From the NCBI GenBank assembly GCA_000165425.1, contig CT868096.1:434001-498000 (forward strand): 64,000 nt of DNA, written 5' to 3'. Made by a program: the position numbers and the translations under genes. Position 1 is the stretch's first letter; each line of letters opens with the position of its first letter. The DNA is from Paramecium tetraurelia (taxonomy: Eukaryota). A model generated the notes under the pieces. It was not told the origin of the DNA. It searched no databases and was given only the letters and a program-made list of their open reading frames with translations. This document shows positions 23,271-43,159 of the stretch, one piece after another.

Positions 23271-23364
23271 TATTCGTAAAAAAATAAGTCTTTTAAATTG
23301 AGATGTTTATTTATATAGATAATATTTGAAATTCAATGAATAATTTTAAAACGTAAATATCAAC

Positions 23365-26300
23365 TCATAGCATCTAATATGTTATTTCATTAGGTTTCAA
23401 ATATTCACATACGTCCGCAACAATTAAATTTTAGAATGTAATATCCTAATCGTCATCAGGTGCAATTACCATTAAGTCAGGATAATCTTCTTTAAATTAT
23501 GTAATCATTCCTTCAATTTTTTGATTTAATTTCATAACTTTAACTTAAATCTTTTTATTTCTGATATAATAGAAAATTTGTCCTTATGTTTTCTTACAAG
23601 GGCAGCCATCTGGAAAAGAATCTCCGAAATTATGATATTATTTTCCATGTGGAGGTGCCTCTGCAATTAAGTATAACAAATTTTAATAATTACCATTCCA
23701 ATTCAACTCTAAAGAAGCATCCAGACCATCTAAAACAGCCTCAGGTTCATCATCACCTCCTTCTGCCGATAATGAATTCAAAAAACTAATGGCAAGGGAA
23801 TATGAAGTAAATTAACAAATATTCACAACATTTTACAACTCATCATATGGATTCTAATGATCCTTATATGATACAATTGCAAATTTCATCTCAATATTAT
23901 GATTTTCTTTTGTTTTTTGCATTATACTTTTGATGACTTCTTTACAGTTATCAATATATTATGACATTGATCCTGTTGTATCAATAACAAAAGCTATGTT
24001 AATTCCTTATATGAATTATACTTTGTGAGTTGATGAACATGGAAATTTATGGGAGGATATCTTGTTATCTTAACTATGCCAAGCTTATTGACAACAAAAT
24101 TGATATTCACCATTTATTTTTTTACATATTGGGCAGTAATAATTACATAGACCTATATTTTATGTTTCCTTTGGGATTGGATGGGCCCATCCTTTATAAT
24201 CCCAATAGTCTATACATAATACTTCATCAAAATTCAGATGTTAAAATCCTTCATATTTCTCCTTTGAGTGTCTAGCTCTAATACCTATTTATTTTTCTAG
24301 GCATTAACTTTCCCCTTTGCATTCAATCAAATGATAATGACTTTTTCCTCTTCTCCTACAACTCTGATCACAAGTTTCTGGAGTAGATTGCTCTCCAATT
24401 TAATACTGTCTAGCAACATTATTATTCTAATCCTATATTATTAATTTAAATTCCTCCCCCTATTTTATTGTAAATATCTAAAATTCTTTATTTATATGGA
24501 TTTGGGAAGAATGATGCCCAGAATGGCCATATTTCAAATCACAAATTTTATTACATTCAGGACATTTTTAATCACATAAATGAAATTATTTTTCTGTCTC
24601 TATCATGCAACTATGTATTTAATTATGATTAAGTTACTATGGTTTAATGTTTCTACAACATTTCTTTTTTTCGTTACTTTAAGGAATATATTTAATGTAA
24701 GAGAATCTTGATTACCACATAATTTCAACTTAAGTATATGTTATTTAGCATATTCCTTTCTCTTAACAAAATTCCTAACACTCATGCTAATCTCCGCAGA
24801 AGTGATTTTAATTTTAGGAATTACGATATTATGAATGTTCATGATTATTTTTACATCTCCTTTCACATAATACGCAATTCTAAATGCAATAACTTTCTTC
24901 GCATATATGGTTTTAATGTTTTGTTGTCCTATCTGTTTTGCATTTCTTACTACAATACTAACACGTTTCTCCACATAGATGAACATTAGTGCAGTTATGT
25001 TATTCAGTATGGTTTAATTCTAGATTGCATTTGACTTAACATTAAGTTATGCTGCATTTGATATTGCATTTATGATTTTTCAAGGAACACAAATGATACT
25101 ATGACTCATTATGACCAGCCTTATTTTCGCATTTCTTATTTGGACATACTTTGCAAATTTAATCGCATTTGTGGTCACTCAAACAAGAATGCACATGCGA
25201 ATTTAATTCTACTAATTCTAACAAATTATATTTTAAAGAGTCTAATTTTTCAGCACTTGTTTCTACTTTCTAGTAACATTCTAAAATCCTTTTTTTGTTT
25301 TGTTATTAAATTAAGAGGACTTATTTTTTTTCTTCCATTTTTTGATATTCCTGTTATAAATCCTTAAGCTTAAGATTTGTATAATTATCTCTCCCTTCCC
25401 AGCCTTTAAGTAAAGTTTCAAATTTTTACATTTCTTAATCTAAAACCTGTTTTTCTTTCAAATGCTACTCTAAATCTCTCAATTCTTTCAAATATTTGTC
25501 AATTTTTGTAATTTACTCTTATTTTTCTTATTCCTTATTAATTAAATTGTTTTCATATTCTTTCAAGCTATTTAATTCTTATTATTCCTTAAGCGATTGA
25601 TCTTTCAATGCAATCAAATTCTCTGATTAATCAATAGATGATTTTTTCAATTAATTTATCTAAGTCTCAAGGTTAATATGTTAGTTTACTTTAATTAACT
25701 TTTTTTCCTGTAAATAATTAAGCTTGGTTTATCTATCAACAATTATTTAAGATTCTGAGATTTCTTAATTTACAATTTCAATTTCCTGCGACAATCTTTT
25801 TATCTCATTCTCATAATAAGTAATTTCTGATTGGATTGACAATAAGAAATTATCTTTGATATTAAAACTTTCTACCTATTCTTCCTAACCAACTTATTTC
25901 TCCATACATTGCTCAAAAAGATTGATTTTGGAAAAATACAAGGCATCAATTTATTCCTTTAATTATAATTCTTCTTTATTACAATATTCAAGCTAATTCT
26001 CAATATTTTAGAATTGAGGCTATGACAATTCTTATCTAAGATCCTCGATCATAATTCTGTTTCTATATCTAGCCAATGATAATTCTTCTATTTCTTCATT
26101 CAACTCAGTAATTTTTGTTTTATTTTTATTTAAATAACTTTTCTTTTCCTTTATTTTTCTGAGGTTATCATATAGCTCTTTATTTTTATCCAACTTCTAT
26201 TAATATACTTACAAAAATAATTGTTAGGGCATGTTGGTATATTATTCCAATAATCTTTAATTTTCATTCTTACTTTATTAGAAAAATTTGATTCCCTCTC

Positions 26301-29300
26301 TAAGATCATGTAATTTTTCTTTTAGTTCTTTTATTTTATTATCATTTTGATTTTTTTCATTCTCTTTATAATAGCCGCCCAATTATAGAATTTCATTTTC
26401 GATTTTTATTATTTCTTCGCTTATTTTTGATTTCTCAGAATTTAAGCTTCCAATTTATTAGTTATTTTTATCAATTTAAATTTGTATTTGTAATTCAATT
26501 TAATTACATTAATATTTAAGATCTGAGTATTTCTACTGAACCTCTTCTTTCTCTTATATAATTTTAATAAGTTTATCACCTTATGTTTTCAACTCATTTT
26601 TAGTCTTCCTTTATTCATCATTTATAAATTTAATATCAAATGCAATTTGCATATTTTCATTTTCTGATTCTAAGTTCATGCCATTTTATTAAACTCTTTA
26701 AACGTTGAAAAAACTAAACTCTTAAACTATATTCATTAGCTATTCTTTCTATTCCTACATAGTAGCTAACTTAATTAAGTTTGAGAGAAGAAATAAATTA
26801 ATTCCAATTTCTTCAATTTTTTGCGAAATGGAAATTAAGCTATTTCTTTCCATCATCTCCTCTTTTTAATTTTGTATTGAAGAATTGTTTCTTTGCTATT
26901 CTAACATATCGATTTCATTTTCAAGTTTTTTTTTCAATGATTCAAAATGCTCTATGTGATTGTTGAAATATTTGCAAGGTAAAAAGCATTCATTGCATTT
27001 ATTTTAACAAAATTAATATCGATCAAATTAAATTTTAAAAAAGTCTTCAAGTTTGGAATTTTCCACTTCAATTTTAGCTTAAAGTTCCATACCATTGATA
27101 TTTTCTATTTCAGATTAAGTCTTTTAAATAATTTGTTTCTTTCTTTGCTCCATCAATTTCTTTAGCTAATTATTAGCTTCTAATAAGTTTGATTTATGAT
27201 CATTTATATTATCCTTTAACTAGAGATCATTATATAATGATTTCAAAAGTACATGGTTGTATTTTATGTAATCAAAATCATCCATCTCAAATTAATATTT
27301 TCTTTAATTCAACCTTAATTCTTCACCTTATTATTATTAATCTAAAGTAAATTTATACCACTGACTTTTGCTTTCTGAGTAAATTTATTCCAATCGGATT
27401 TCAAAATCTATTAGAGTTGCATCTTTGGTATCTGACAATTCTAGCTAACAAAGAACAACCTTTACCATAGATATTAATTCCTTACCATTTTTCCATCGAA
27501 TACATTCTATAGACTTCTACAAAAGGTAGGCTCTTATTTTCTTAAGTTAATGATCAAATAATTCTTTTTCATTATTAACTAATTATTCAACTGACATATA
27601 ATTACTAAACAATTCTTTCAAAAATGGAAAATCTCGTATTTGTTCGTTATCTAATGCGTTAAAAGAATTGACATCCCTAATGATCTTATATAGAAAACCC
27701 TTAAATAACCTTTCATCTTTTAGCTACTGTGATTCTTCAAATACATTATTAAAAAGTTCTTTTTAATGTCTATCAAAAGAAGTATCTGAGTTTAAAATTG
27801 TAGCATCACTAATCGCAATAATAAATGATAGCATTTTGACTTCTTCTTTTTCAGTTCTAGATCCATCAAATAAACCTTCACAGTCAAGTATTAAAAACTT
27901 TTAATTATCCACAATTGCTAAACTTCCCCAAACTCCATCAGTGCATCTGGCTGATGAAACAGAAAATCTTGTTCCAAATACTCTATTTAATAGGTAACTT
28001 TTGCCTGATGACTGCCTACCAATTATTCCGACAACAAAAATTTTTTTTTCTTCAACTAACAAATAATCCTCTAAAAACCCAAGATGTAATTATTTGACTC
28101 TACAATCTATACTTATACTCTTTTAATTTAGTGAAAATTATCTAAACCCATCATTTAAAGGAATTAGAGTTCCATATTCAATGGTACAAAACTATAAAGG
28201 AACTCTTGAAAATATAATATCAATTATTTAATTCCTATCACACTCAGAGTATTGACTGTCATTCATACTCAAATTAGTAAACTTCAAATCCAATTTCTTA
28301 AAATAATCCATCATTTTAAGCTATTCATTTTCTTTAACATATAAAGTAATATAGCTTAATTTATTTTGATACAAAAACTCAGCATTTGGTCCAAATTTAC
28401 TTTCTGAGCCTTTAACAATGTCCAATGCAGGATTGCCCAAAAGTTTACTTTTTTATTCTTGTCTTTGCTGAGATAAATTTGATTAAATTTTTAAGACATA
28501 TTTTTTTCCTTCATTTTAAAATTCATACATCTAATCAAAAATTATAACATCAGAAGAATCTGAAACAATTTTTACATGACCATTGATAGGTATTGTTTAC
28601 AGTTTTTTACCAGTAAGGTCATATCTATCGCAACAATGAAAATTAGCAAGGTAAAAGTATTTGCCACTTGGACAGGCTAATAATTATTTGTAATTTTATG
28701 TTGGATTAGTGCTGGGTGTGAATTCTGTTTAAGTAACCTCATTTCCTATTTCCTGTAAGCATTTAATAAGACGAAATTATTATTCTTTTTCAGATTATGT
28801 ATAGATTTTGTTATTTTTGGATAATACTATTAACTTTTTACAAGTGTAAATATATGCAACTTAATCTACTAAAAATGGATTACCTTAATTATCCAATTAA
28901 TAACAATAAAATTAATCATTTTATACTATGCCTCTTGAGGAAATTGTGATCTACTATACATATTTTTCTTTATGATTGAATATGAATAAGTGGTCAAGTG
29001 TAATAGTCGAAATAGTATACAGCTTGTTATATTTCCATTAGAGCTAATTATCTTATCACTATTGCTTTCTGGGCTTAAAATAATAAAAATAAGATATAAG
29101 CCATTTTTTAAGTATAAACTATAAAAATGGAAGATTTATTTTTAGTTTAAAATATCTCTTTAATATGATAATCTTATTTCCTATCTTATAAAAAACTACC
29201 ATCTAAATAATAATCATAAATTTCATCCAATTCAGGTTTAATATTGTCTATATTCTAAGACTTATTACGATAGCATCTGAAATTAATTTTCTTTACTGAA

Positions 29301-33400: not shown

Positions 33401-36400
33401 AGTTTTTAGAGATTTTAATTAGATCTTTTTAAGAAATCTTAAGAAATTATTAATAGCTGCATTAGTTGGAAAAACAAGCAAAATAAGTAAGTTTAGATAA
33501 AGCAAGGTGATTTATAGAAAGTAATTAACTAAATTTATAAAATTAGAACTATTATTTAAGAATTGATTATAATTTAACTTTACACTAATTAAAGAATGGT
33601 TAGAAAGCTCAGCAAAATTAACATAATACTAAAATTTACAAAATGGCAAAATTCATTTTTAATCTTTAAAAATTTTTAAATATGGGGTGGAATTGTTGAA
33701 ATTATAAGTTCGAAAGGTTTTTCTTTAATATTACAAATACAATTATTTTTTGACTTGTTTTAGTTAATAAAAATTTTTCAAAACATAGGTTCTTTTGTTT
33801 CTTGAAATTAAGATTTTGGAAGTAGAAGTAGAATAAAAATATGTCTGATATACAAAATATATTGTTGTTCAAACAAAGTAGGTAGGAATATGGTAATGGT
33901 CATCTTTATTTTCTTTTGTAAGTAAAACATAGAAATTATAATTCAATATTCAATCTAATCCAAAGATTTCTTGATGAATGGTAAAGTAGATGATAATTGG
34001 TTATTCATTTATTGTATTGATCAAGAAAAAAGGATGTGATTGTGATGTTTTTCTTATAAACTATTTAAAAGAATTCCACAATATGCCTATTGGATTCAAC
34101 TGGGTGTGTCAGGTGGTAATCAAATGTTTACACAATTCTATAATTTTGCCACTTCTTTTACTTGTGTTTAAGACTATTATCAAGAAAAAATACAAAAGCC
34201 TTGCCATCATAGTGCAGTTTTAACACCCTAGTTCATTAAATAAGGTGATAACAACAAACTTTACTATTCACACAACCTAATTGACTTTTAAAAGCTAAAA
34301 TTATTTTTACTCCCAATTGACCCTAATACTACAATAGTATCTGTTTTGTTGTGATAATCAGAAATCTTAATTTACTGATATTTGCCTATATCTATTTTGT
34401 ATTTTGTCCATTAGTTCTAATATTCAATCAGAAATATATAGTTATATTTAAATAAATTATTACAAAGCAAACGTATGAATTTAATCTTCTTGTGGTTTCA
34501 TAAAAATCGTTTATTTGCACTAATGATGAATGCTATATTAGAAAAATATTAATGGTGAGATAATAAATGTTGGTTAATTTAAAGACAACTTATAAGGCTT
34601 CTTATTTGTTCTTGATAATCGTCCTATACACAAGTAAAAAGAGTAGCAGAATTATACATTTGTTTACCACCATACACACCCAGTTTAACCCAATAGAAAG
34701 ACTGCGGAATACTTTTAAATAGTTTATTAGAAAAAAATCAAAAACACATATCCTAATGGATAAATTAATTAATCCCTAATGCATTACAGAGGAATAATTG
34801 AATAACTGCGTGTAACTTATTTTAAGATTTGCCTTAATATAATTGTTTTTCATTCATTTTTTAACGTATATTGTTCTTTTTGTATCATTAAATAGATTAT
34901 ACTTGTATCAATAATTGAAATTTGTACCTTCTGCTTTTAAGAAAAAATTAATTGCTGAAATGCTGTCGTTTTTATATTCCTCTTTTTTCAAAATTAACCT
35001 GTAACTGAATATTATCTTTCTTTTTTGTTTAAAACTTTGGATGCAGTTCAAACAAAAGGTAAAAAAGTATCAGCTGAATAAAATTTATTCATTTATTTTC
35101 AAAATGGTTTGTGGTTTTCTAAAGTAATTCTACAATGACATTCTGGATATATTAATTCCACATACCCTGATCTAAAAAAGTGTATATAATTTAAGAATTA
35201 AGGTTTAATAAAATCAATTTTGAAAACTAACTTTAAATAGATTTCATAAGTCAACCATAATTATTAATTACAAAACAATATTAAAAGCCGATCTAAAAGC
35301 ATGAAATATTTAATTAAAAAAAGCTTAAAATAAAACTATAGTAATTCGAAGCGTGTTTGATTCACTAATAAATACTTAACTTTTACGCCAATAGTTTAAG
35401 ATTTTTGTTAATAAATTCTATTGAGATTGAATCGATTTTTGAGTAAAGATTATTAAATTGTGAAAAGAAATTATTCTGTTCAATTTATTACTTATAAATT
35501 TATGGAAATTAAAATTTAGATCTCCATTTATCTTGAAATGGTAGGCTTGCTCAATAAAATAGTGGTATTTTAGTGACTTAATATAACTAAGGTCTATCAT
35601 TAAAATTTAGGTTGTTCTGTTAATAATTGTATTTTTATCTAATATTATGTATATTTTGCAAAATGAGATTGTAAATGTCATAAATTAAGGAAAAAAATTA
35701 TAACCCCAAACAATAACACATTGTATAAAATTAAATTACAAATCTTTCCCTTAAAAATTGTAAAATAACATTTTAAAATGGTATACTAAATAAATCAAAT
35801 AGTTATATTTTATTGTATAAAATTAGAAAAAGAGACTATTTCAACTCATTCATTGTTTTTATAAAAATTACACAAAAAGATAACTGATTTTGATAGATAT
35901 TTTGTATTAAATTGCGAATAATAGTAATAATATACAACACTTTTTAATGGTTTATAAGGTAAAATCACAAATAACATTTACAAACTTGATAAAGTTATAC
36001 AAAATTATTTTAAAAGCAATACAGATGAAGAATTAGATAGCCCTAATTATTCACAAATGCACACCACTTCTCAAGAAATTTTAGAATTCAAATTTCATTT
36101 GATTTTACTAGATATTATTGAAAAATTGACTTTTGTTTGAAAAATACTTATATGAATCTAACATGTTTAGCAATATTAAGATAGGTTAACAATTCAAAGT
36201 GATTTATTTATTTGTTTGTTTATGAATTACCCTATAGTGAATAATATAACATATTATTGGTTTTACATTTAAATATACATGTAAATGTCTAAATTAATTT
36301 ATTAAATAACCAACCATCAATACATAAGAATTTATTGTATAAGTAAATATTTCATCTGTAATATCCTTGATCTAGAAACAATTATCAATTCTTTTTGATA

Positions 36401-36922
36401 GAACAACCAAAACATTATTCACAGGTATGCTTAGAAATAATATGTCAAAAAAGCAAAAATTGATCCAGTGTTTCTGCTCTTATGAACTAATGTTTCGGTA
36501 CGAAAAGCCAGATTAATAATTTATTGATGCTAAAAATGGCTTTAATGCTTCATTTATTGTATATGAAACAAATGCTAATTATTGTGATATATCAAAAATC
36601 ACATTCAGGTCAGAATAAATGAAAGATCTAAGTTTTCCAAATGTTAATGATGTATGGGTGGAAACTATATATTAATGATGAAACTAAATGATTTTCTAGA
36701 TCTTAATCTTTAAAAACAAATAAATTAGAATCAAGTGTTGCTGTAATATGCAGCAAATAATCCTTTTGATGATAGATACAAAGTAAATCACCTCAAGAAT
36801 ATTAATGGTGGTTTGTAACTAACAGGATTAGCATGGATATCTAACATAAGAAAATTCATTATTACATTATTAAAAATAAAGAAAAAATATTGAATTAAGA
36901 TGATTGAATCCAATAAAGTATA

Positions 36923-38163
36923 TCACAAGCAATTTCGTATAATTCTAAGGAAGGAACTATAACATTCTATTACTCCATTTATGTTTTATTTTATATTTTA
37001 ATAAATCTAAACTAAGATTTAGTTTTCAAACTGCTGAATTTTCTGAAATAATTTCAATATTCTACTTATATATTTAATAGAAGAGGAGGTAAAACTTTAA
37101 ATGAACTATGCTTAGCGTTCATTCATTTCTTATTTATGGGACTCAAAGTCATGTTTTACAGAATGCAAAAGAGTTTGGAGATCTCTCATCGTTCGTATTT
37201 CTGGCAATATAAATGAGGTCTTTTCAAAATTAAATTTTCTAACAAATAAATCAATTAATTATTGAATTTTCTCATTGATAAATGAACTACTTTATTTTGG
37301 TTTCTTAGAGTTATTTTTTGACATCATTAGCCTCTCATTCAAAATATCCTCATACTTCAGTTCTGGTATAACTTATAAATCAAAATCTAATTCAAATAAT
37401 ATCACAATAATTAAGGCTAATCTTTGTTAATGGCATCTGAAAAGTAGGAATATTAGGTCTTTACAAAAGTTGAAACTTTCTAAAGCGATTTCTTTATCAA
37501 TTTTCAATTAATCTTCTCTTAATTACTTTACTTTTTCAAGCAATTCTGCACTCAAAGGCCAGCCTAATAGAAGTAAAAAAATATCTTACAAAGAGATTTT
37601 GTTTAAAATTTTATTGCTTAGATGCTGTTTTATTTAAATTATTCATTGTTCAAAAATTATAGAATGAAATTCTCTTAAAGCAATTCTGACGCTTAATCCA
37701 TTATATAATTGTAGAATCTCTTCAAAATTATGATATAAGTCTTTTATGTAGTACGTCTTTTATTAATTACACAAGTTATCTTTTGTAGACATTTTCCAAA
37801 GTAATTATTCAAATCTTATTTAGATAAATAAATACACTCTTTGCTTTATTGTTTTAAATCCTTAGCTTTTTATAGATGAAATAATTTTTGTTTTTTCACT
37901 TGTTGATCTATAGGATCAAATTCGCCAAAGGTTCTATTATTACAACCCAACTGAAAAAGTATTTCATATTAACAATTTAAATGACCATTCGATAATAAAT
38001 GATCATTCAATGCTTGTTCGATTGGTAATTTTGTTGGAAATATTAATTTTTGTTAACAAACTTGGCATTAATATTCATTCTCCGATATCTATAGGAAATA
38101 CTGCAATTTAGACTAATTTCTTTAACAATTCATGTTTTAAGGATTTAAATAATAATTATTCAT
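36923..38163 (-). CDS. ~404-aa protein with an N-terminal C2H2-like zinc finger and possible degenerate tyrosine-recombinase fold
   Basis: Intact frame from ATG 38163 to TGA 36923 after removing one 26-nt intron (37564-37589); YQCQVC...HLLSNGH near the N-terminus. Confidence 0.75.
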
Positions 38164-38772
38164 TAGCTAAATTTGAATTATAAATTAACTAGGAATATTT
38201 TAGTTGAAAAATGAATAATACAATATCCTCCATTCATTAAATAACAAACCTATGTAAATAAATATGTTAATGATTAGTGCAAGAATGATTTAATAAACAT
38301 AGTTATTAATATTTGCCATAATTGATTATCGATTAATGAATAATTTATTTATTTTTGAATTAGAAATAGAATCCTAAAACTGATCTAATGTAATAACTAG
38401 AACTTAATTATGAAATCATTATGTGAAATTTCAAGAAATACATATTTTCAAAAAATGTAGAATGAATGTTTCAGAAGCAAATGTAAAACCAAAAAAGTTA
38501 TCATACAATTTTGAAATTGTGTTGGTTTGAATTATATTTTAATTGTATATGAATGCGTTATTATTTGGGGCTTATCAGTGTTTTTTTCTTAAATTTATAA
38601 CATAGATTATAGATATATTTACGGTTGAACTTTCAGATAAATGGAGCAAATAATAAGACTGATTTATGTAGTGCTGGGCAATAGCCAATCTCATCTGCAA
38701 AATATAAATAATATTATATCAATATACAATAATTAACAGAAAAACTCATAATTTTAATTAATATATTTGAAA

Positions 38773-38816
38773 TATACTAAGTCAATAAAATACAACTATT
38801 TTATTGACTTAGTATA
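38773..38816. repeat. Perfect 20-bp inverted repeat with 4-nt loop, bounded by TA
   Basis: tatactaagtcaataaaata-caac-tattttattgacttagtata. Confidence 0.95.
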
Positions 38817-39380
38817 AAATATTAAATAATAACAATAATTATTATATAAAAAAATAAAAATTATAATTTATATTAAATTTGGGAAATCCATTAAATTGAT
38901 TGATTTGTGAACAAAACNNNNNNNNNNNNNNNNNNNNNNNNNNNNNNNNNNNNNNNNNNNNNNNNNNNNNNNNNNNNNNNNNNNNNNNNNNNNNNNNNNN
39001 NNNNNNNNNNNNNNNNNNNNNNNNNNNNNNNNNNNNNNNNNNNNNNNNNNNNNNNNNNNNNNNNNNNAGCCTATACATGATTCATCTTGACTTCACTTCG
39101 AATGATTTCATTACAGAATTGTTAACTAAGTTAAAAGACAAGACTTCAAAATAAAATGAAACTAGTTGAGGTATTGTCTAATTTTACAAATACCGCCTAG
39201 CCTCTTCCTTTACTATTGGATTCAGACATGTTTGATTGAATTATTTATCAGTGAAATTTTATTCTTTATCTTTTGAAATAAAATATTAAATAATAACAAT
39301 AATTATTATATAAAAAAATAAAAATTATAATTTATATTAAATTTGGTAATCCATTAAATTGATTGATTTGTGAACAAAAC
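38815..39380 (+). repeat. ~102-bp direct duplication flanking the assembly gap (38815-38917 and 39279-39380)
   Basis: Both copies read taaaatattaaataataacaat...ttgtgaacaaaac and differ only at gggaaatcc versus ggtaatcc. Confidence 0.95.
38918..39067. other. Assembly gap (N run)
   Basis: Run of N bases. Confidence 1.
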
Positions 39381-39499
39381 CAAAATATATTATCCAAAAT
39401 AATGTTGACTAACAAATCTAATTTATTAAATTAGAATTAAATATAAAAAGCTTTGTTCACAGATTGGATCAATCTTTATATACATTAAAATTAGATATT

Positions 39500-40384: not shown

Positions 40385-41354
40385 ATGTCTATAATTGGAG
40401 TATTGGGTGGTATTTGTTCAGGAAAATAGTTATTTTGTTAGTTAATGAAAGAAATGTATGACTATTAAATAGTTTACTTTGATCAGGAAATTGATCTGAA
40501 TAAAACTGCTATGCAGATATATAATAACTGGAATACTCCTACAATTATCACAGCAATCACCACGAAGGAGCAGATACGAGTCTTGAAGAAAAGAAACTAT
40601 TTTCATTTAATATATTTGGACTCACCTTCATTTACAAGATATAGAAGATATTGTGAAAAGCATGAAATAATTAAGTTTGAAGATTTCGTGAGACTTGATG
40701 ATAAAGTATGAGAAATTTTCACTATATAAGCAAAAATATGATCTAGATTTCTTAGAGTTGTCAAAGAATTGCAAGGTTTATCTTAAAAATAATACAAACA
40801 CTTTTGAAGAATTCAGAAATTACTTGAAACAATAAATGGCTAAGATCATTAGACCATTTCGACCTGATTGGGATGTATATTTTATGAAAGTAAGATTATT
40901 AACATCATAGATTGCATATACAGTCAAATAAAGAAGCAATTGCATGAAAAAGAGTGTCGGGGCGGTGTTAATTAACAACAATAAAAGAATTTTAAGTACT
41001 TCTTATAATGGAACTCCAAAAGTGATGAAAAATTGTAATGAAGGAGGGTGTGATGTTTGCAAGGAATCATAAACTTTAGACTTGATTTTATATAAGTGTA
41101 TGTGCATTCATGCAGAAGAAGGATGCATCTTAGAATTAGGAATCACACAAACTAGAAATACTACTTTGTATACAACTTTGTTTCCGTGTGTTTGGTGTTG
41201 TAAAGCCCTTTTGTAAGCTGTATGATTTAGAAATTATTTTAAGGAAGTTTCAAGAATAGTTTATTGTGAATAAGGCAACTGGGATCTATCTTTAAAAATT
41301 ATATAAAATTTAATCAAATATGATTAGATAGATATTGAGCAATATATTTATTGA
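40385..41354 (+). CDS. DCTD: dCMP deaminase with an N-terminal P-loop kinase-like domain
   Basis: IIGVLGGICSGK, RPDWDVYFMK, RSNCMKKSVGAV, YNGTP, CIHAEE, PCVWC. Confidence 0.9.
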
Positions 41355-42112: not shown

Positions 42113-43159
42113 TTGGGTTATTTGAACGACAAAGGAGTAACTTATGATTACTATGAATCTCTGGCATTTTATAAGATGCTAAAGAAAAAGAAAGATTGCA
42201 ATTTTTGAGCTTGTTAAAAATTTTTGGGAAATTCTAATTACACAAAAATTAATTTGAATATCTCTCAGATCCAAATGTCAGATGGAGACCAAAATGTAGT
42301 TATTCTGGGGTGATGAATTTGAAGGTAATGTGATAAATTTGTATGATGATTAGAAATTAGCACTTTTGAGCCCTAATACTAGTAAACATTATAGAGATTA
42401 AAATAGGTGGCTTATTTCAAAGTTTAGGTGAAGAGCAATAGAAGAAGTTGCCATTTGTAATATTACCAGAATTTGTTGCTTGGATGATTGAATTGACTCC
42501 AAACAAACCTTATCAATGCATGTGCTTCAATTTCGATCAGGTGTCAATAAATATGAGAAAGAGAATTCAAACACTCTAAAGCTATCTACCACATGGTTTA
42601 TCATGATACTTATGATTGTTCGATTGTTCTTTACAGTAATTTATTAATTGTATTTTTAGAACTATATTCCTGTTAACTTTTATATGCCTTTATCCCTTGT
42701 TGATGAAAATAAGAGAAGATCAAAAGAAAAAGGAGCTATTTTAAATTAAAAATTCTATTTTAGGACTAATTTTTAAGAATTTGGTCCTGCTACTGTAGAA
42801 GAACTAACCTTACAAGAAATATTTTTTGGTAAATAAGACGGATCTTTTATTGGAATTGTAGGACTAATTCACTAAAATAGAAATGTTGTTAAAAAATAAT
42901 AATGTGCATAGAAAGAAGAACAGATATATCTAAAAAATAAAGTACTTCAAGATGAAGTCATGCAATTTGTAAAAAACAAAGTAATGGTACTACTAAGACG
43001 CTTGCTTCTTGGATGAGAGATTTTGTAACTTCACATCCAAATTATAATTAAGATCCAATAGTTACACATGAAATTAATTTTGATCTTATCAGAACACTCA
43101 CTGCAATTAAAGATAGGTAAAAGGAGGATCCTCACTTTCCCTTTATATTCATTATGTGA
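42113..43159 (+). pseudogene. GCLC: Glutamate-cysteine ligase catalytic subunit pseudogene with a large internal deletion
   Basis: FWGDEFE, PEFVAWMIELTPNKPY, then directly NFYMPLSLVDEN...KFYFR and TLASWMRDFVTSHPNYNQD. No ATG at the expected start; frameshifts present. Confidence 0.8.

What the first reader, a model, noticed from the sequence alone, without database searches (positions are those of the whole stretch)
36923..38163. Zinc-finger protein resembling a domesticated, catalytically dead tyrosine recombinase
Seen: an intact one-intron gene amid decayed DNA, with CQVC...HLLSNGH, then RRTTQKTYIIILKRFYNYI, then RLALIIVILFELDFDLQVIPELKYEDI, then FTSSSIKYISRIL. Established: tyrosine recombinases carry a core-binding helix pattern (T...Y...l..F..f), box I (R..a...ll..tG.R..E...L...Di) and box II (tpHslRH.f). 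The three segments occur here in that order, but the catalytic Arg and HxxR appear replaced. Inference: an integrase-derived DNA-binding protein, of interest in an organism with programmed DNA elimination. The resemblance is by eye only.
Basis: inference. Interest (0 to 1): 0.7.

Follow-up and report, generated by a model that had tools for sequence, protein, structure and literature searches.

The report
Truncated ThonC transposon ORF1 copy
The gene is a shortened, still-transcribed copy of "ORF1" from a known Paramecium transposon family (ThonC); ORF1 does look like a disabled relative of that transposon's own tyrosine recombinase, but nothing shows the host has adopted it.

Summary
The window is Paramecium tetraurelia macronuclear DNA. 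The gene is the public model GSPATT00000802001.

Residues 1-340 match the published ORF1_ThonC consensus at 330 of 340 positions (my hand count). [quoted passage not shown] The start codon and two tiny introns are the same. The ThonC spacer and 136 nt of ThonC terminal repeat lie upstream.

The copy loses ThonC homology after codon 340. I found no ORF2, DDE or Y-recombinase motifs in the window. An RNA contig shows three spliced introns and a 345-aa product.

The tyrosine-recombinase resemblance is probably real, about 0.7. ORF1 parallels the element's own Y-recombinase by eye. The ESM Atlas places both this protein and its one homologue next to recombinase clusters. The catalytic Arg, His and Arg positions read Asp, Ser and Lys.

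No profile or fold test reached significance. That covers Pfam, PHROGs, NCBIfam, hhalign, AlphaFold2, Foldseek and VIA-align.

Domestication is unsupported. The copy is about 97% identical to the transposon consensus, keeps transposon ends, and has no orthologue in the searches run.

The parts
37026..38133 (-). RNA-supported coding region of the truncated ThonC ORF1 copy. It has 4 exons (38133-37836, 37814-37590, 37563-37066, 37042-37026 including the TGA stop) and gives 345 aa.
   Evidence: RNA contig of run X3 spans 36311-38138 with three gaps. The spliced translation has one terminal stop, and its first 340 aa equal P0001 1-340.
37815..37835 (-). Intron 1, 21 nt, in frame. An alternative 5' site at 37837 gives a 23-nt, frame-shifting form.
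   Evidence: Left out of the X3 contig; the 23-nt form is left out of an X7 contig. Sequences. The same removal is made in P0001 and in the ORF1_ThonC consensus peptide.
37564..37589 (-). Intron 2, 26 nt, GTAAGA...ATTAG.
   Evidence: Left out of the X3 contig but retained in X7 contig 4. An intron in the same phase (T|GC Cys codon) is present in Thon genomic versus cds text and in the ThonC consensus.
37043..37065 (-). Intron 3, 23 nt, GTAG...TCAG. It lies just past the point where ThonC homology ends, and its removal ends the ORF after five more codons.
Evidence: Left out of the X3 contig.
36923..37042 (-). This stretch is not ThonC ORF1 sequence.
   Evidence: The ThonC consensus reads differently after ...SSIKYI. 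C-terminal ORF1_ThonC motifs are absent from all six frames.
37981..38067 (-). N-terminal zinc-finger-like motif, CQVC-x18-H-x5-H (residues 23-51).
   Evidence: Translation. A CxxC...H motif stands at the same place in the Sardine, Thon and ThonC ORF1 and Y-recombinase peptides. P0002 has lost the cysteines.
37609..37764 (-). Core-binding (SAM-like) candidate domain, including RRTTQKTYIIILKRFYNYI.
   Evidence: Pfam PF13495 Phage_int_SAM_4, E=0.032, 15.1 bits, cut-off 27, residues 134-185 of the 196-aa query.
37343..37423 (-). Box I-like segment RLALIIVILFELDFDLQVIPELKYEDI. The position of the catalytic Arg reads Asp.
   Evidence: conserved in P0002. By-eye alignment with ...ILYELAARISEL... of the Sardine and ThonC Y-recombinases.
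37067..37105 (-). Box II-like segment FIQSFTSSSIKYI. HxxR reads SxxK. These are the last residues shared with ThonC ORF1.
   Evidence: By-eye alignment with FLQNFQYHDLRY (Sardine Y-rec) and FLEQLKSHDLRY (ThonC Y-rec).
38134..38679 (-). ThonC spacer between the terminal repeat and ORF1.
   Evidence: The window's minus strand upstream of the ATG reads like the ThonC consensus text upstream of ORF1, by eye over about 250 nt.
38680..38815 (+). ThonC terminal-repeat fragment: terminus-like end at 38680 and the 32-nt sub-palindrome at 38779-38810. In the gene's orientation it reads as the inner arm of the palindromic left TIR. It breaks off at about 38815.
   Evidence: 18 of 20 match to the ThonC 'TIR end consensus'. 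The 32-mer matches with 1 mismatch, and 0 of 100 shuffles give a match.
35459..35684 (-). Second, more diverged ThonC-like terminal-repeat fragment. Its terminus-like end at about 35678 faces the gene.
   Evidence: Inverted repeat I3. Alignment with 38660-38917 gives 77% mean column identity, best over about 130 nt. A GTGAAAAG-type motif lies at 35459.
36311..38138 (-). Extent of the spliced transcript contig.
   Evidence: X3 record 1: 1758 nt, 3 other letters, 70 nt of gaps.

Best explanation
This is a 5' fragment of a ThonC transposon sitting in the macronuclear genome of Paramecium tetraurelia. ThonC is one of the 'Fish' family of composite IS630-Tc1-mariner elements that also carry a tyrosine recombinase. 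The fragment runs from within the left terminal repeat (about 38815), through the spacer, to codon 340 of the element's 445-codon ORF1 (about 37067). ORF2, the DDE transposase and the Y-recombinase are not recognisable in the window. The locus is transcribed at a low level and spliced at the two ancestral ORF1 introns and at a third, fortuitous GT..AG just beyond the truncation point. The predicted product is 345 aa. ORF1 is most likely (about 0.7) an old paralogue of the element's own tyrosine recombinase. It has the same N-terminal CxxC...H finger, core-binding-like helices and catalytic-domain-like blocks, but the active-site Arg, His and Arg read Asp, Ser and Lys. In the transposon it would therefore bind DNA, plausibly the repeated sub-palindromes of the terminal repeats or the active recombinase, without cutting. 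That last step is inference. This somatic copy is best read as a young transposon relic that escaped elimination, not as a host gene. What is shown: identity with ThonC ORF1, the flanking ThonC sequences, the truncation, transcription and splicing. What is inferred: recombinase ancestry, the DNA-binding role, and lack of host function.
For: Organism and public model. ThonC identity: ORF1_ThonC consensus (Guérin 2017, Additional file 4, read) versus P0001 gives 330 of 340 identical by my hand count. The same ATG and the same two introns are removed. The window's upstream 250 nt read like the consensus. TIR end is 18 of 20, and the 32-nt sub-palindrome has 1 mismatch with 0 of 100 shuffles matching. 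Truncation and missing partners: no C-terminal ORF1_ThonC motif (0 hits for 3 motifs). There were no DDE, Y-rec or ORF2 motif hits (0 hits for 5 motifs; the only hit at the gene itself is the ORF1 motif, plus one 1-mismatch hit elsewhere at 23340-23360). No transposase or integrase Pfam hit appeared among 104 ORFs of 100 aa or more in 28-48 kb. Transcription and splicing: (X3 contig 36311-38138 with 3 gaps; oligo-dT raw-read runs X22 and X23 laid 10 and 4 reads). Product length. Recombinase likeness: Pfam SAM_4 E=0.032. Atlas feature score 0.96 and ten of ten structure rows are recombinase clusters, for both P0001 105-345 and the 27%-identical P0002 140-380. By eye, Sardine Y-rec ...LAFRLFILYELAARISELAQITFQMV against Sardine ORF1 ...LAFLLLLLFELDLELSCISILTFQDV gives 12 of 28 identical with no gaps, at nearly the same residue number; the box II blocks also align. 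No orthologue.
Against: No significant sequence-profile or fold match to tyrosine recombinases was obtained. Pfam PF00589 is absent for the exon pieces, P0001 and P0002. PHROGs and NCBIfam gave nothing. The PDB sequence profile search gave nothing. hhalign of the two-sequence profile against 14 E. coli and lambda recombinases, and three subsets, gave P-values of 0.5-0.9. The AlphaFold2 models were unusable (pLDDT 55 and 33), and their fold searches returned only generic helical hits. The ORF1/Y-rec paralogy rests on alignments by eye and on the Atlas, which its own text calls a lead. One of my by-eye alignments, of the unspliced tail, proved wrong once the ThonC consensus was read. Against 'mere relic': the ORF is open over 345-387 codons, it is transcribed and correctly spliced, and it sits in the somatic genome, from which transposons are normally removed. 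The two terminal-repeat fragments have their termini pointing towards the gene. That fits inner arms of palindromic TIRs, as the Sardine consensus text shows, but it also fits ends of two neighbouring elements. The outer arms were not found.
Confidence: 0.8

Rival explanations
1. Domesticated host gene. A transposon-derived, catalytically dead recombinase kept by the cell as a DNA-binding factor, perhaps acting on ThonC/Sardine-derived sequences during programmed DNA elimination.
For: Open frame, macronuclear location, transcription and splicing. An intact zinc-finger motif, whereas the P. primaurelia homologue has lost its cysteines. A neighbouring ORF1 relic is far more decayed.
Against: It matches the transposon consensus at 330 of 340 residues, so it shows no history of its own. 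It is truncated at codon 340 of 445. ThonC terminal-repeat and spacer sequences are still attached. No orthologue or ohnologue appeared in two word-index searches (344-2000 aa and 367-1169 aa) or in the exhaustive phmmer search, which returned only P0002 at 27% identity. Only 10 and 4 reads were laid from two oligo-dT RNA runs. Open frames of 200 aa or more are common by chance under a one-stop code: 67 in this window.
Confidence: 0.07
2. The recombinase resemblance is chance or convergence. On this view ThonC/Sardine ORF1 is an unrelated helical zinc-finger protein, and only the transposon identity is real.
For: Every statistical test was below significance. Helix-rich, AT-biased ciliate sequences give many weak look-alikes. 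The Atlas notes that its scores were not measured for parts of proteins, and its own models of these proteins have pLDDT 0.44 and 0.42. One of my own by-eye alignments proved spurious.
Against: Two proteins only 27% identical independently land on recombinase clusters in both Atlas searches. The top Pfam hit among 24,736 models is the family predicted beforehand. The finger, box I-like and box II-like blocks lie at nearly the same residue numbers in ORF1 and in the Y-recombinase of the same element, in two families.
Confidence: 0.25
3. Assembly artefact or germline contamination. The ThonC fragment would not really be part of the macronuclear chromosome but was scaffolded in next to a gap.
For: A 150-N gap at 38918-39067 lies just beyond the repeat fragment. 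A 107-nt direct repeat (38811-38917 and 39275-39381) brackets that gap.
Against: One RNA contig crosses from ThonC ORF1 into 730 nt of non-ThonC sequence with only 3 mismatches. Ten runs from several studies hold half or more of the stretch's sampled words (only two of those were laid). The public model lies on a 950-kb scaffold.
Confidence: 0.07

Closest known systems
[quoted passage not shown] 2017, PMC5405496, Table S4 and consensus file; I saw supplement passages)
   Same: 330 of 340 residues identical (hand count). Same start, same two intron removals, and same upstream spacer and terminal-repeat sequence.
   Different: It stops matching after codon 340 of 445. It lies in the somatic genome. 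ORF2, DDE and Y-REC are not recognisable nearby. A third short segment is spliced out, giving a new five-residue C-terminus.
ORF1 of Thon and Sardine (Arnaiz et al. 2012, PMC3464196, Text S1; called 'hypothetical' in the main text; passages seen)
   Same: Thon ORF1 aligns with no gaps over the first 189 residues at about 41% identity (77 of 189, hand count). It shares the zinc finger, the KTY.IILKRFYN, ILF...DL.VIP.LKY.DIL and FIQ.FT.S.IK blocks, and the intron phase. P0002 of P. primaurelia resembles Sardine ORF1.
   Different: These are different families, with nucleotide identity of roughly 65-70% by eye.
Y-recombinase ORF of Sardine, Thon and ThonC, and the tyrosine recombinases of Euplotes Tec elements as cited in those papers
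   Same: Similar length, an N-terminal CxxC...H finger, and box I and box II blocks at matching residue numbers (by eye).
   Different: The Y-recombinases keep R (AARISE) and HDLR. ORF1 has D/E/T, S and K at those places.
Bacterial and phage tyrosine recombinases (Pfam PF00589 with PF13495 / PF02899; XerC/D, lambda Int)
   Same: Nearest neighbours in the ESM Atlas by features and by predicted structure. Sub-threshold PF13495 hit.
   Different: No PF00589 match, hhalign negative, and the catalytic residues are not conserved.
Crypton-derived animal genes with the DUF3504 domain (recalled from memory, not checked here)
   Same: Precedent for recombinase-derived proteins that have lost catalytic residues.
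   Different: Those are old, conserved host genes. This one is a near-consensus transposon fragment, and no Pfam DUF3504 hit appeared.

Membership tests
ThonC ORF1 (Fish-type composite Tc1/mariner transposon) | Near-identity to the ORF1_ThonC consensus peptide | tested here: met
   330 of 340 positions identical. This is a hand comparison with the supplement text, because supplement sequences could not be entered into alignment tools.
ThonC ORF1 (Fish-type composite Tc1/mariner transposon) | Same intron positions as the element's ORF1 | tested here: met
   The 21-nt and 26-nt segments are removed in RNA, in P0001 and in the consensus peptide. Thon genomic versus cds text shows the same T|GC phase.
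ThonC ORF1 (Fish-type composite Tc1/mariner transposon) | ThonC terminal inverted repeat next to ORF1 | tested here: met
   18 of 20 to the TIR end consensus. The 32-nt sub-palindrome has 1 mismatch and 0 of 100 shuffles match.
ThonC ORF1 (Fish-type composite Tc1/mariner transposon) | Complete element: full 445-aa ORF1 plus ORF2, DDE transposase and Y-REC between two full TIRs | tested here: not met
   Motif scans found none. No transposase or integrase Pfam hit in 104 ORFs. Outer TIR arms were not found. So this is a fragment.
Tyrosine recombinase superfamily | Profile match to the catalytic domain (Pfam PF00589) at or above its cut-off | tested here: not met
   No PF00589 row at E up to 10 for the exon pieces, P0001 or P0002. 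PHROGs, NCBIfam and PDB profiles gave nothing. hhalign P 0.5-0.9.
Tyrosine recombinase superfamily | N-terminal core-binding (SAM-like) domain | tested here: inconclusive
   PF13495 at E=0.032, 15.1 bits against a cut-off of 27. Not seen in P0002. Atlas neighbours carry Phage_int_SAM families.
Tyrosine recombinase superfamily | Catalytic residues: Arg I, His-x-x-Arg, and the Tyr nucleophile | tested here: not met
   In by-eye alignment with the Sardine and ThonC Y-recombinases, Arg reads Asp, His reads Ser and Arg reads Lys. The region that would hold the Tyr is missing from this truncated copy.
Tyrosine recombinase superfamily | Recombinase fold | tested here: inconclusive
   AlphaFold2 pLDDT 55 and 33. 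Foldseek and VIA-align returned only generic helical hits, best Z 5.8. Atlas structure search gave TM 0.52-0.59 and 0.43-0.49 to recombinase clusters.
Domesticated transposon gene | Conserved orthologues in related species | tested here: inconclusive
   None found. Proteins shorter than 344 aa were outside the word-index searches that used this protein. The search from 272 aa (query P0002) did not recover P0001 itself. No Paramecium genome could be searched.
Domesticated transposon gene | Loss of transposon ends and divergence from the mobile family | tested here: not met
   The terminal-repeat fragment and spacer are retained, and the protein is about 97% identical to the consensus.

The most novel reading that the evidence does not exclude
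The large 'Fish' Tc1/mariner transposons of Paramecium would encode two recombinase-type proteins: an active Y-recombinase and ORF1, an inactivated paralogue that binds the palindromic terminal repeats. The truncated ORF1 made from this somatic ThonC fragment would then act in trans on germline ThonC/Sardine repeats, as a repressor or as a guide for their elimination.
Probability: 0.06. Interest if true: 0.7.

Novelty: already known. Interest (0 to 1): 0.3.

Why it matters
The finding mostly clears up an orphan annotation. The uncharacterised 668-aa public model is a mis-extended transposon fragment, and the 'domesticated recombinase' is a copy of a catalogued transposon ORF. Two smaller points may interest people who work on ciliate transposons. 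First, ORF1 of the Sardine/Thon/Merou-type elements is listed without a function in the passages I read. It looks like a catalytically disabled paralogue of the element's own tyrosine recombinase. That would make these elements carriers of a paired active and inactive recombinase module alongside a DDE transposase. Second, a near-consensus transposon fragment is retained, transcribed and spliced in the somatic nucleus of an organism that normally deletes such DNA.

Tried and rejected
- Whole-genome search of the window's own assembly: no genome is held.
- Word-index homologue searches: three were run and returned only P0001 or P0002 themselves.
- PHROGs, NCBIfam and PDB sequence profile searches: no recombinase hit.
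- hhalign of the P0001+P0002 core against alignments of 14 E. coli K-12 and lambda recombinases, and against Xer, Xer+Fim and phage-type subsets, in local, low-mact and global modes: best P 0.54.
- AlphaFold2 of the exon-3 domain (pLDDT 55) and of the whole public model (pLDDT 33): both too poor.
VIA-align wide gave best Z 5.8, all generic helical proteins and no recombinase. The second model was not searched.
- RNA run search: no RNA holder is listed on record. The runs used were guessed to be RNA, and X3 was accepted as RNA because its contig lacks three GT..AG segments.
- A by-eye match between the unspliced C-terminal tail (…KIQQFENQILVQIYQNIKQNIN…) and the Sardine ORF1 and Y-rec tails, including a supposed retained Tyr: rejected. 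The ThonC consensus showed that this tail is not ORF1 sequence.
- A candidate outer arm of the left terminal repeat at 35232-35400: not convincing.
- Terminal and GTGAAAAG-type short motifs alone: no more frequent than in shuffles.
- Earlier findings of this scan: nothing.
- Literature search for the gene identifier: 0 papers.
- Sardine, Thon and ThonC peptides from the supplements were not entered into alignment, profile or fold tools, so those comparisons are by eye only.
Full report
**What is there.** The window is AT-rich (GC 0.21-0.35) and reads as ciliate DNA in which only TGA is a stop. A word-index search with the first frame returned one protein at 96% identity. It is P0001, 668 aa, 'unnamed protein product (macronuclear) [Paramecium tetraurelia]', GSPATT00000802001 / XP_001438487 / A0CJX3, on a 950-kb contig.

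**Gene model from RNA.** I laid four runs on 35900-38500.
- One contig of run X3 (1758 nt, depth 18) covers 36311-38138 with only three other letters.
This pattern marks the contig as spliced RNA.
- Run X7 shows a 23-nt alternative for the first segment and retains the second.
- Two oligo-dT raw-read runs gave 10 and 4 reads from about 19 and 22 million records, so the level there is low.
- Joining the four exons from ATG 38133 gives 345 codons and one terminal stop. The first 340 residues equal P0001.
- The 270-aa tail of the public model depends on a different 29-nt splice that the RNA contig does not show.

**Relatives.**
- Exhaustive phmmer over 1.84 billion representatives found only one other protein: P0002, 495 aa, from P. 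primaurelia, E=1.4e-5. It is 27% identical over 234 columns (pairwise E=1e-17).
- P0002 has no Pfam family and has lost the finger cysteines.
- Further word-index searches found nothing else.

**Identity: a ThonC transposon ORF.**
- Arnaiz et al. 2012 (passages) describe the germline transposons Sardine and Thon. These have palindromic terminal repeats, a DDE transposase, a tyrosine recombinase and two hypothetical ORFs.
- Text S1 of that paper prints the peptides. Thon ORF1 aligns with the window protein with no gaps over the first 189 residues, at 77 identical by my hand count. Thon genomic DNA has an intron in the same T|GC codon as the window's 26-nt intron.
- Guérin et al. 2017 list seven such 'Fish' families in Table S4. 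The ThonC terminal consensus TATAGCCAATCTCATTTGCA matches window 38680-38699 at 18 of 20.
- The printed ORF1_ThonC peptide, 445 aa, differs from P0001 1-340 at ten positions: D76N, N103D, A141E, Q170L, S179R, K187E, I229L, R252K, T299R, S334F. This is a hand comparison. It has the same start and the same two intron removals.
- The ThonC consensus upstream of ORF1 reads like the window's 38164-38400.
- The Thon 32-nt sub-palindrome occurs at 38779-38810 with one mismatch, and 0 of 100 shuffles give a match.
- After codon 340 the window no longer follows the consensus. Three C-terminal ORF1_ThonC motifs have no match in any frame.
- Five motifs of the DDE, Y-recombinase and ORF2 proteins likewise have no match. 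Among 104 ORFs of 100 aa or more in 28-48 kb, none hits a transposase or integrase family.
- The locus is therefore a ThonC fragment of about 1.75 kb: part of the terminal repeat, the spacer, and ORF1 codons 1-340.
- Two of the three RNA-versus-reference differences (37691, 37085-86) turn residues 141 and 334 into the consensus residues.

**Surroundings.**
- A second, more diverged ThonC-like terminal fragment lies at 35459-35684 in inverted orientation.
- Both fragments have their terminus-like ends facing the gene. The Sardine consensus text shows that these terminal repeats are full palindromes whose inner boundary repeats the terminus. The arrangement therefore fits the inner arms of one internally deleted element. 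It equally fits the ends of two neighbouring elements. Outer arms were not found.
- At 34911-35060 a stop-ridden frame matches the Sardine-like core-binding block of P0002: 11 of 19 identical, pairwise E=1e-6, tblastn in the window E=0.035.

**Is ORF1 a dead tyrosine recombinase?** Evidence for:
- The top Pfam hit of the first exon, among 24,736 models, is Phage_int_SAM_4. It is sub-threshold (E=0.032, 15.1 bits, cut-off 27).
- The ESM Atlas places P0001 105-345 at feature score 0.96 among clusters carrying Phage_integrase or Phage_int_SAM families. All ten structure rows are recombinase clusters, TM 0.52-0.59.
- The 27%-identical P0002 140-380 gives the same picture independently: score 0.96, first hit Phage_int_SAM_2 / Integrase_1, ten of ten structure rows recombinase clusters, TM 0.43-0.49.
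- By eye, ORF1 and the Y-recombinase of the same element share several features. Both have a CxxC...H finger near the N-terminus. Both have a T/Q..Y...L(K/R)(L/F) helix. They share a box I block, Sardine LAFRLFILYELAARISELAQITFQMV against LAFLLLLLFELDLELSCISILTFQDV (12 of 28, no gaps, residues 216 and 217). They also share a box II block, FLQNFQYHDLRY against FIQNFHLSVIKF.
- In that register the catalytic Arg is Asp here (Glu, Asp and Thr in Sardine ORF1, Thon ORF1 and P0002). His is Ser in all four ORF1 proteins compared, and the second Arg is Lys in all four.

Evidence against:
- No PF00589 hit.
- Nothing in PHROGs, NCBIfam or PDB sequences.
- hhalign against 14 bacterial and phage recombinases gave P 0.5-0.9.
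- AlphaFold2 models were too poor to test the fold.
- I could not put the supplement peptides into any tool. One of my by-eye alignments, of the tail, turned out to be false.

I put the ancestry at about 0.7.

**Domesticated?** I think not.
- The copy is about 97% identical to the mobile family's consensus.
- It is truncated.
- It keeps transposon end and spacer sequence.
- It has no detectable orthologue.
- It is weakly expressed in the two raw-read runs.
- Its openness is unremarkable for a young copy under a one-stop code: 67 frames of 200 aa or more occur in this window.

Caveats: proteins under 344 aa were outside the word-index searches made with this protein, and no Paramecium genomes could be searched. 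Supplements other than those named were not read. I found no statement that ORF1 is recombinase-like in the passages read or in the listing of the three papers found by the search 'Sardine, Thon, Paramecium, recombinase'.

**Verdict.** This is a known transposon ORF in fragmentary form, sitting in the somatic genome, transcribed and spliced. The biological reading as a domesticated host factor is not supported.

Noticed in passing
window 34034-34749: A large palindrome: arms 34034-34192 and 34603-34749, about 84% complementary, around about 410 nt. The size and shape recall the palindromic terminal repeats of Fish elements, but the sequence did not look Thon-like by eye.
   Followed up: partly
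window 34800-35060 (-): A stop-containing relic of a Sardine-like ORF1 core-binding block (...EEYKNDSISAINFFLKAEG...). It matches P0002 at 11 of 19 residues (pairwise E=1e-6) and scores E=0.035 by tblastn in the window.
   Followed up: partly
window 38811-38917 and 39275-39381, N run 38918-39067: A 107-nt direct repeat brackets the 150-N gap, and the sequences upstream of the two copies differ. This may be an unresolved assembly join or alternative rearrangement forms at the edge of the ThonC fragment.
   Followed up: no
window 37691 and 37085-37086: RNA contigs differ from the window here: 37691 in both X3 and X7, and 37085-86 in X3 only. Both changes give the residues of the ThonC consensus (A141E, S334F). 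This could be reference error, strain difference or a second near-identical copy.
   Followed up: partly
window 36051-36965 (-), part of public model P0001: The C-terminal 270 aa of the public 668-aa model come from a 29-nt splice (36945-36973) that the RNA contig does not show. This tail has no homologue or family hit.
   Followed up: partly
P0002 (P. primaurelia CAD8085141.1): This annotated 495-aa 'protein' looks like a decayed Sardine-type ORF1 (QISD, HDSVSAL, LILFELDL, NEEAKQFI blocks) without finger cysteines. It is probably another transposon relic annotated as a gene.
   Followed up: partly
window 36311-36721: Transcribed sequence downstream of the stop. It is a separate block in run X7 but joined to the gene's contig in run X3. 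Small plus-strand ORFs (36427-36678, 36654-36893) have no family hit.
   Followed up: no
window 42492-43013 (+), 40692-41222 (+), 23368-29055 (-): Neighbouring recognisable genes or fragments: a piece of glutamate-cysteine ligase (PF03074, 8.9e-14), a dCMP/cytidine deaminase (PF00383, 8e-16), and a 1896-aa frame with GTPase and VWA domains.
   Followed up: no
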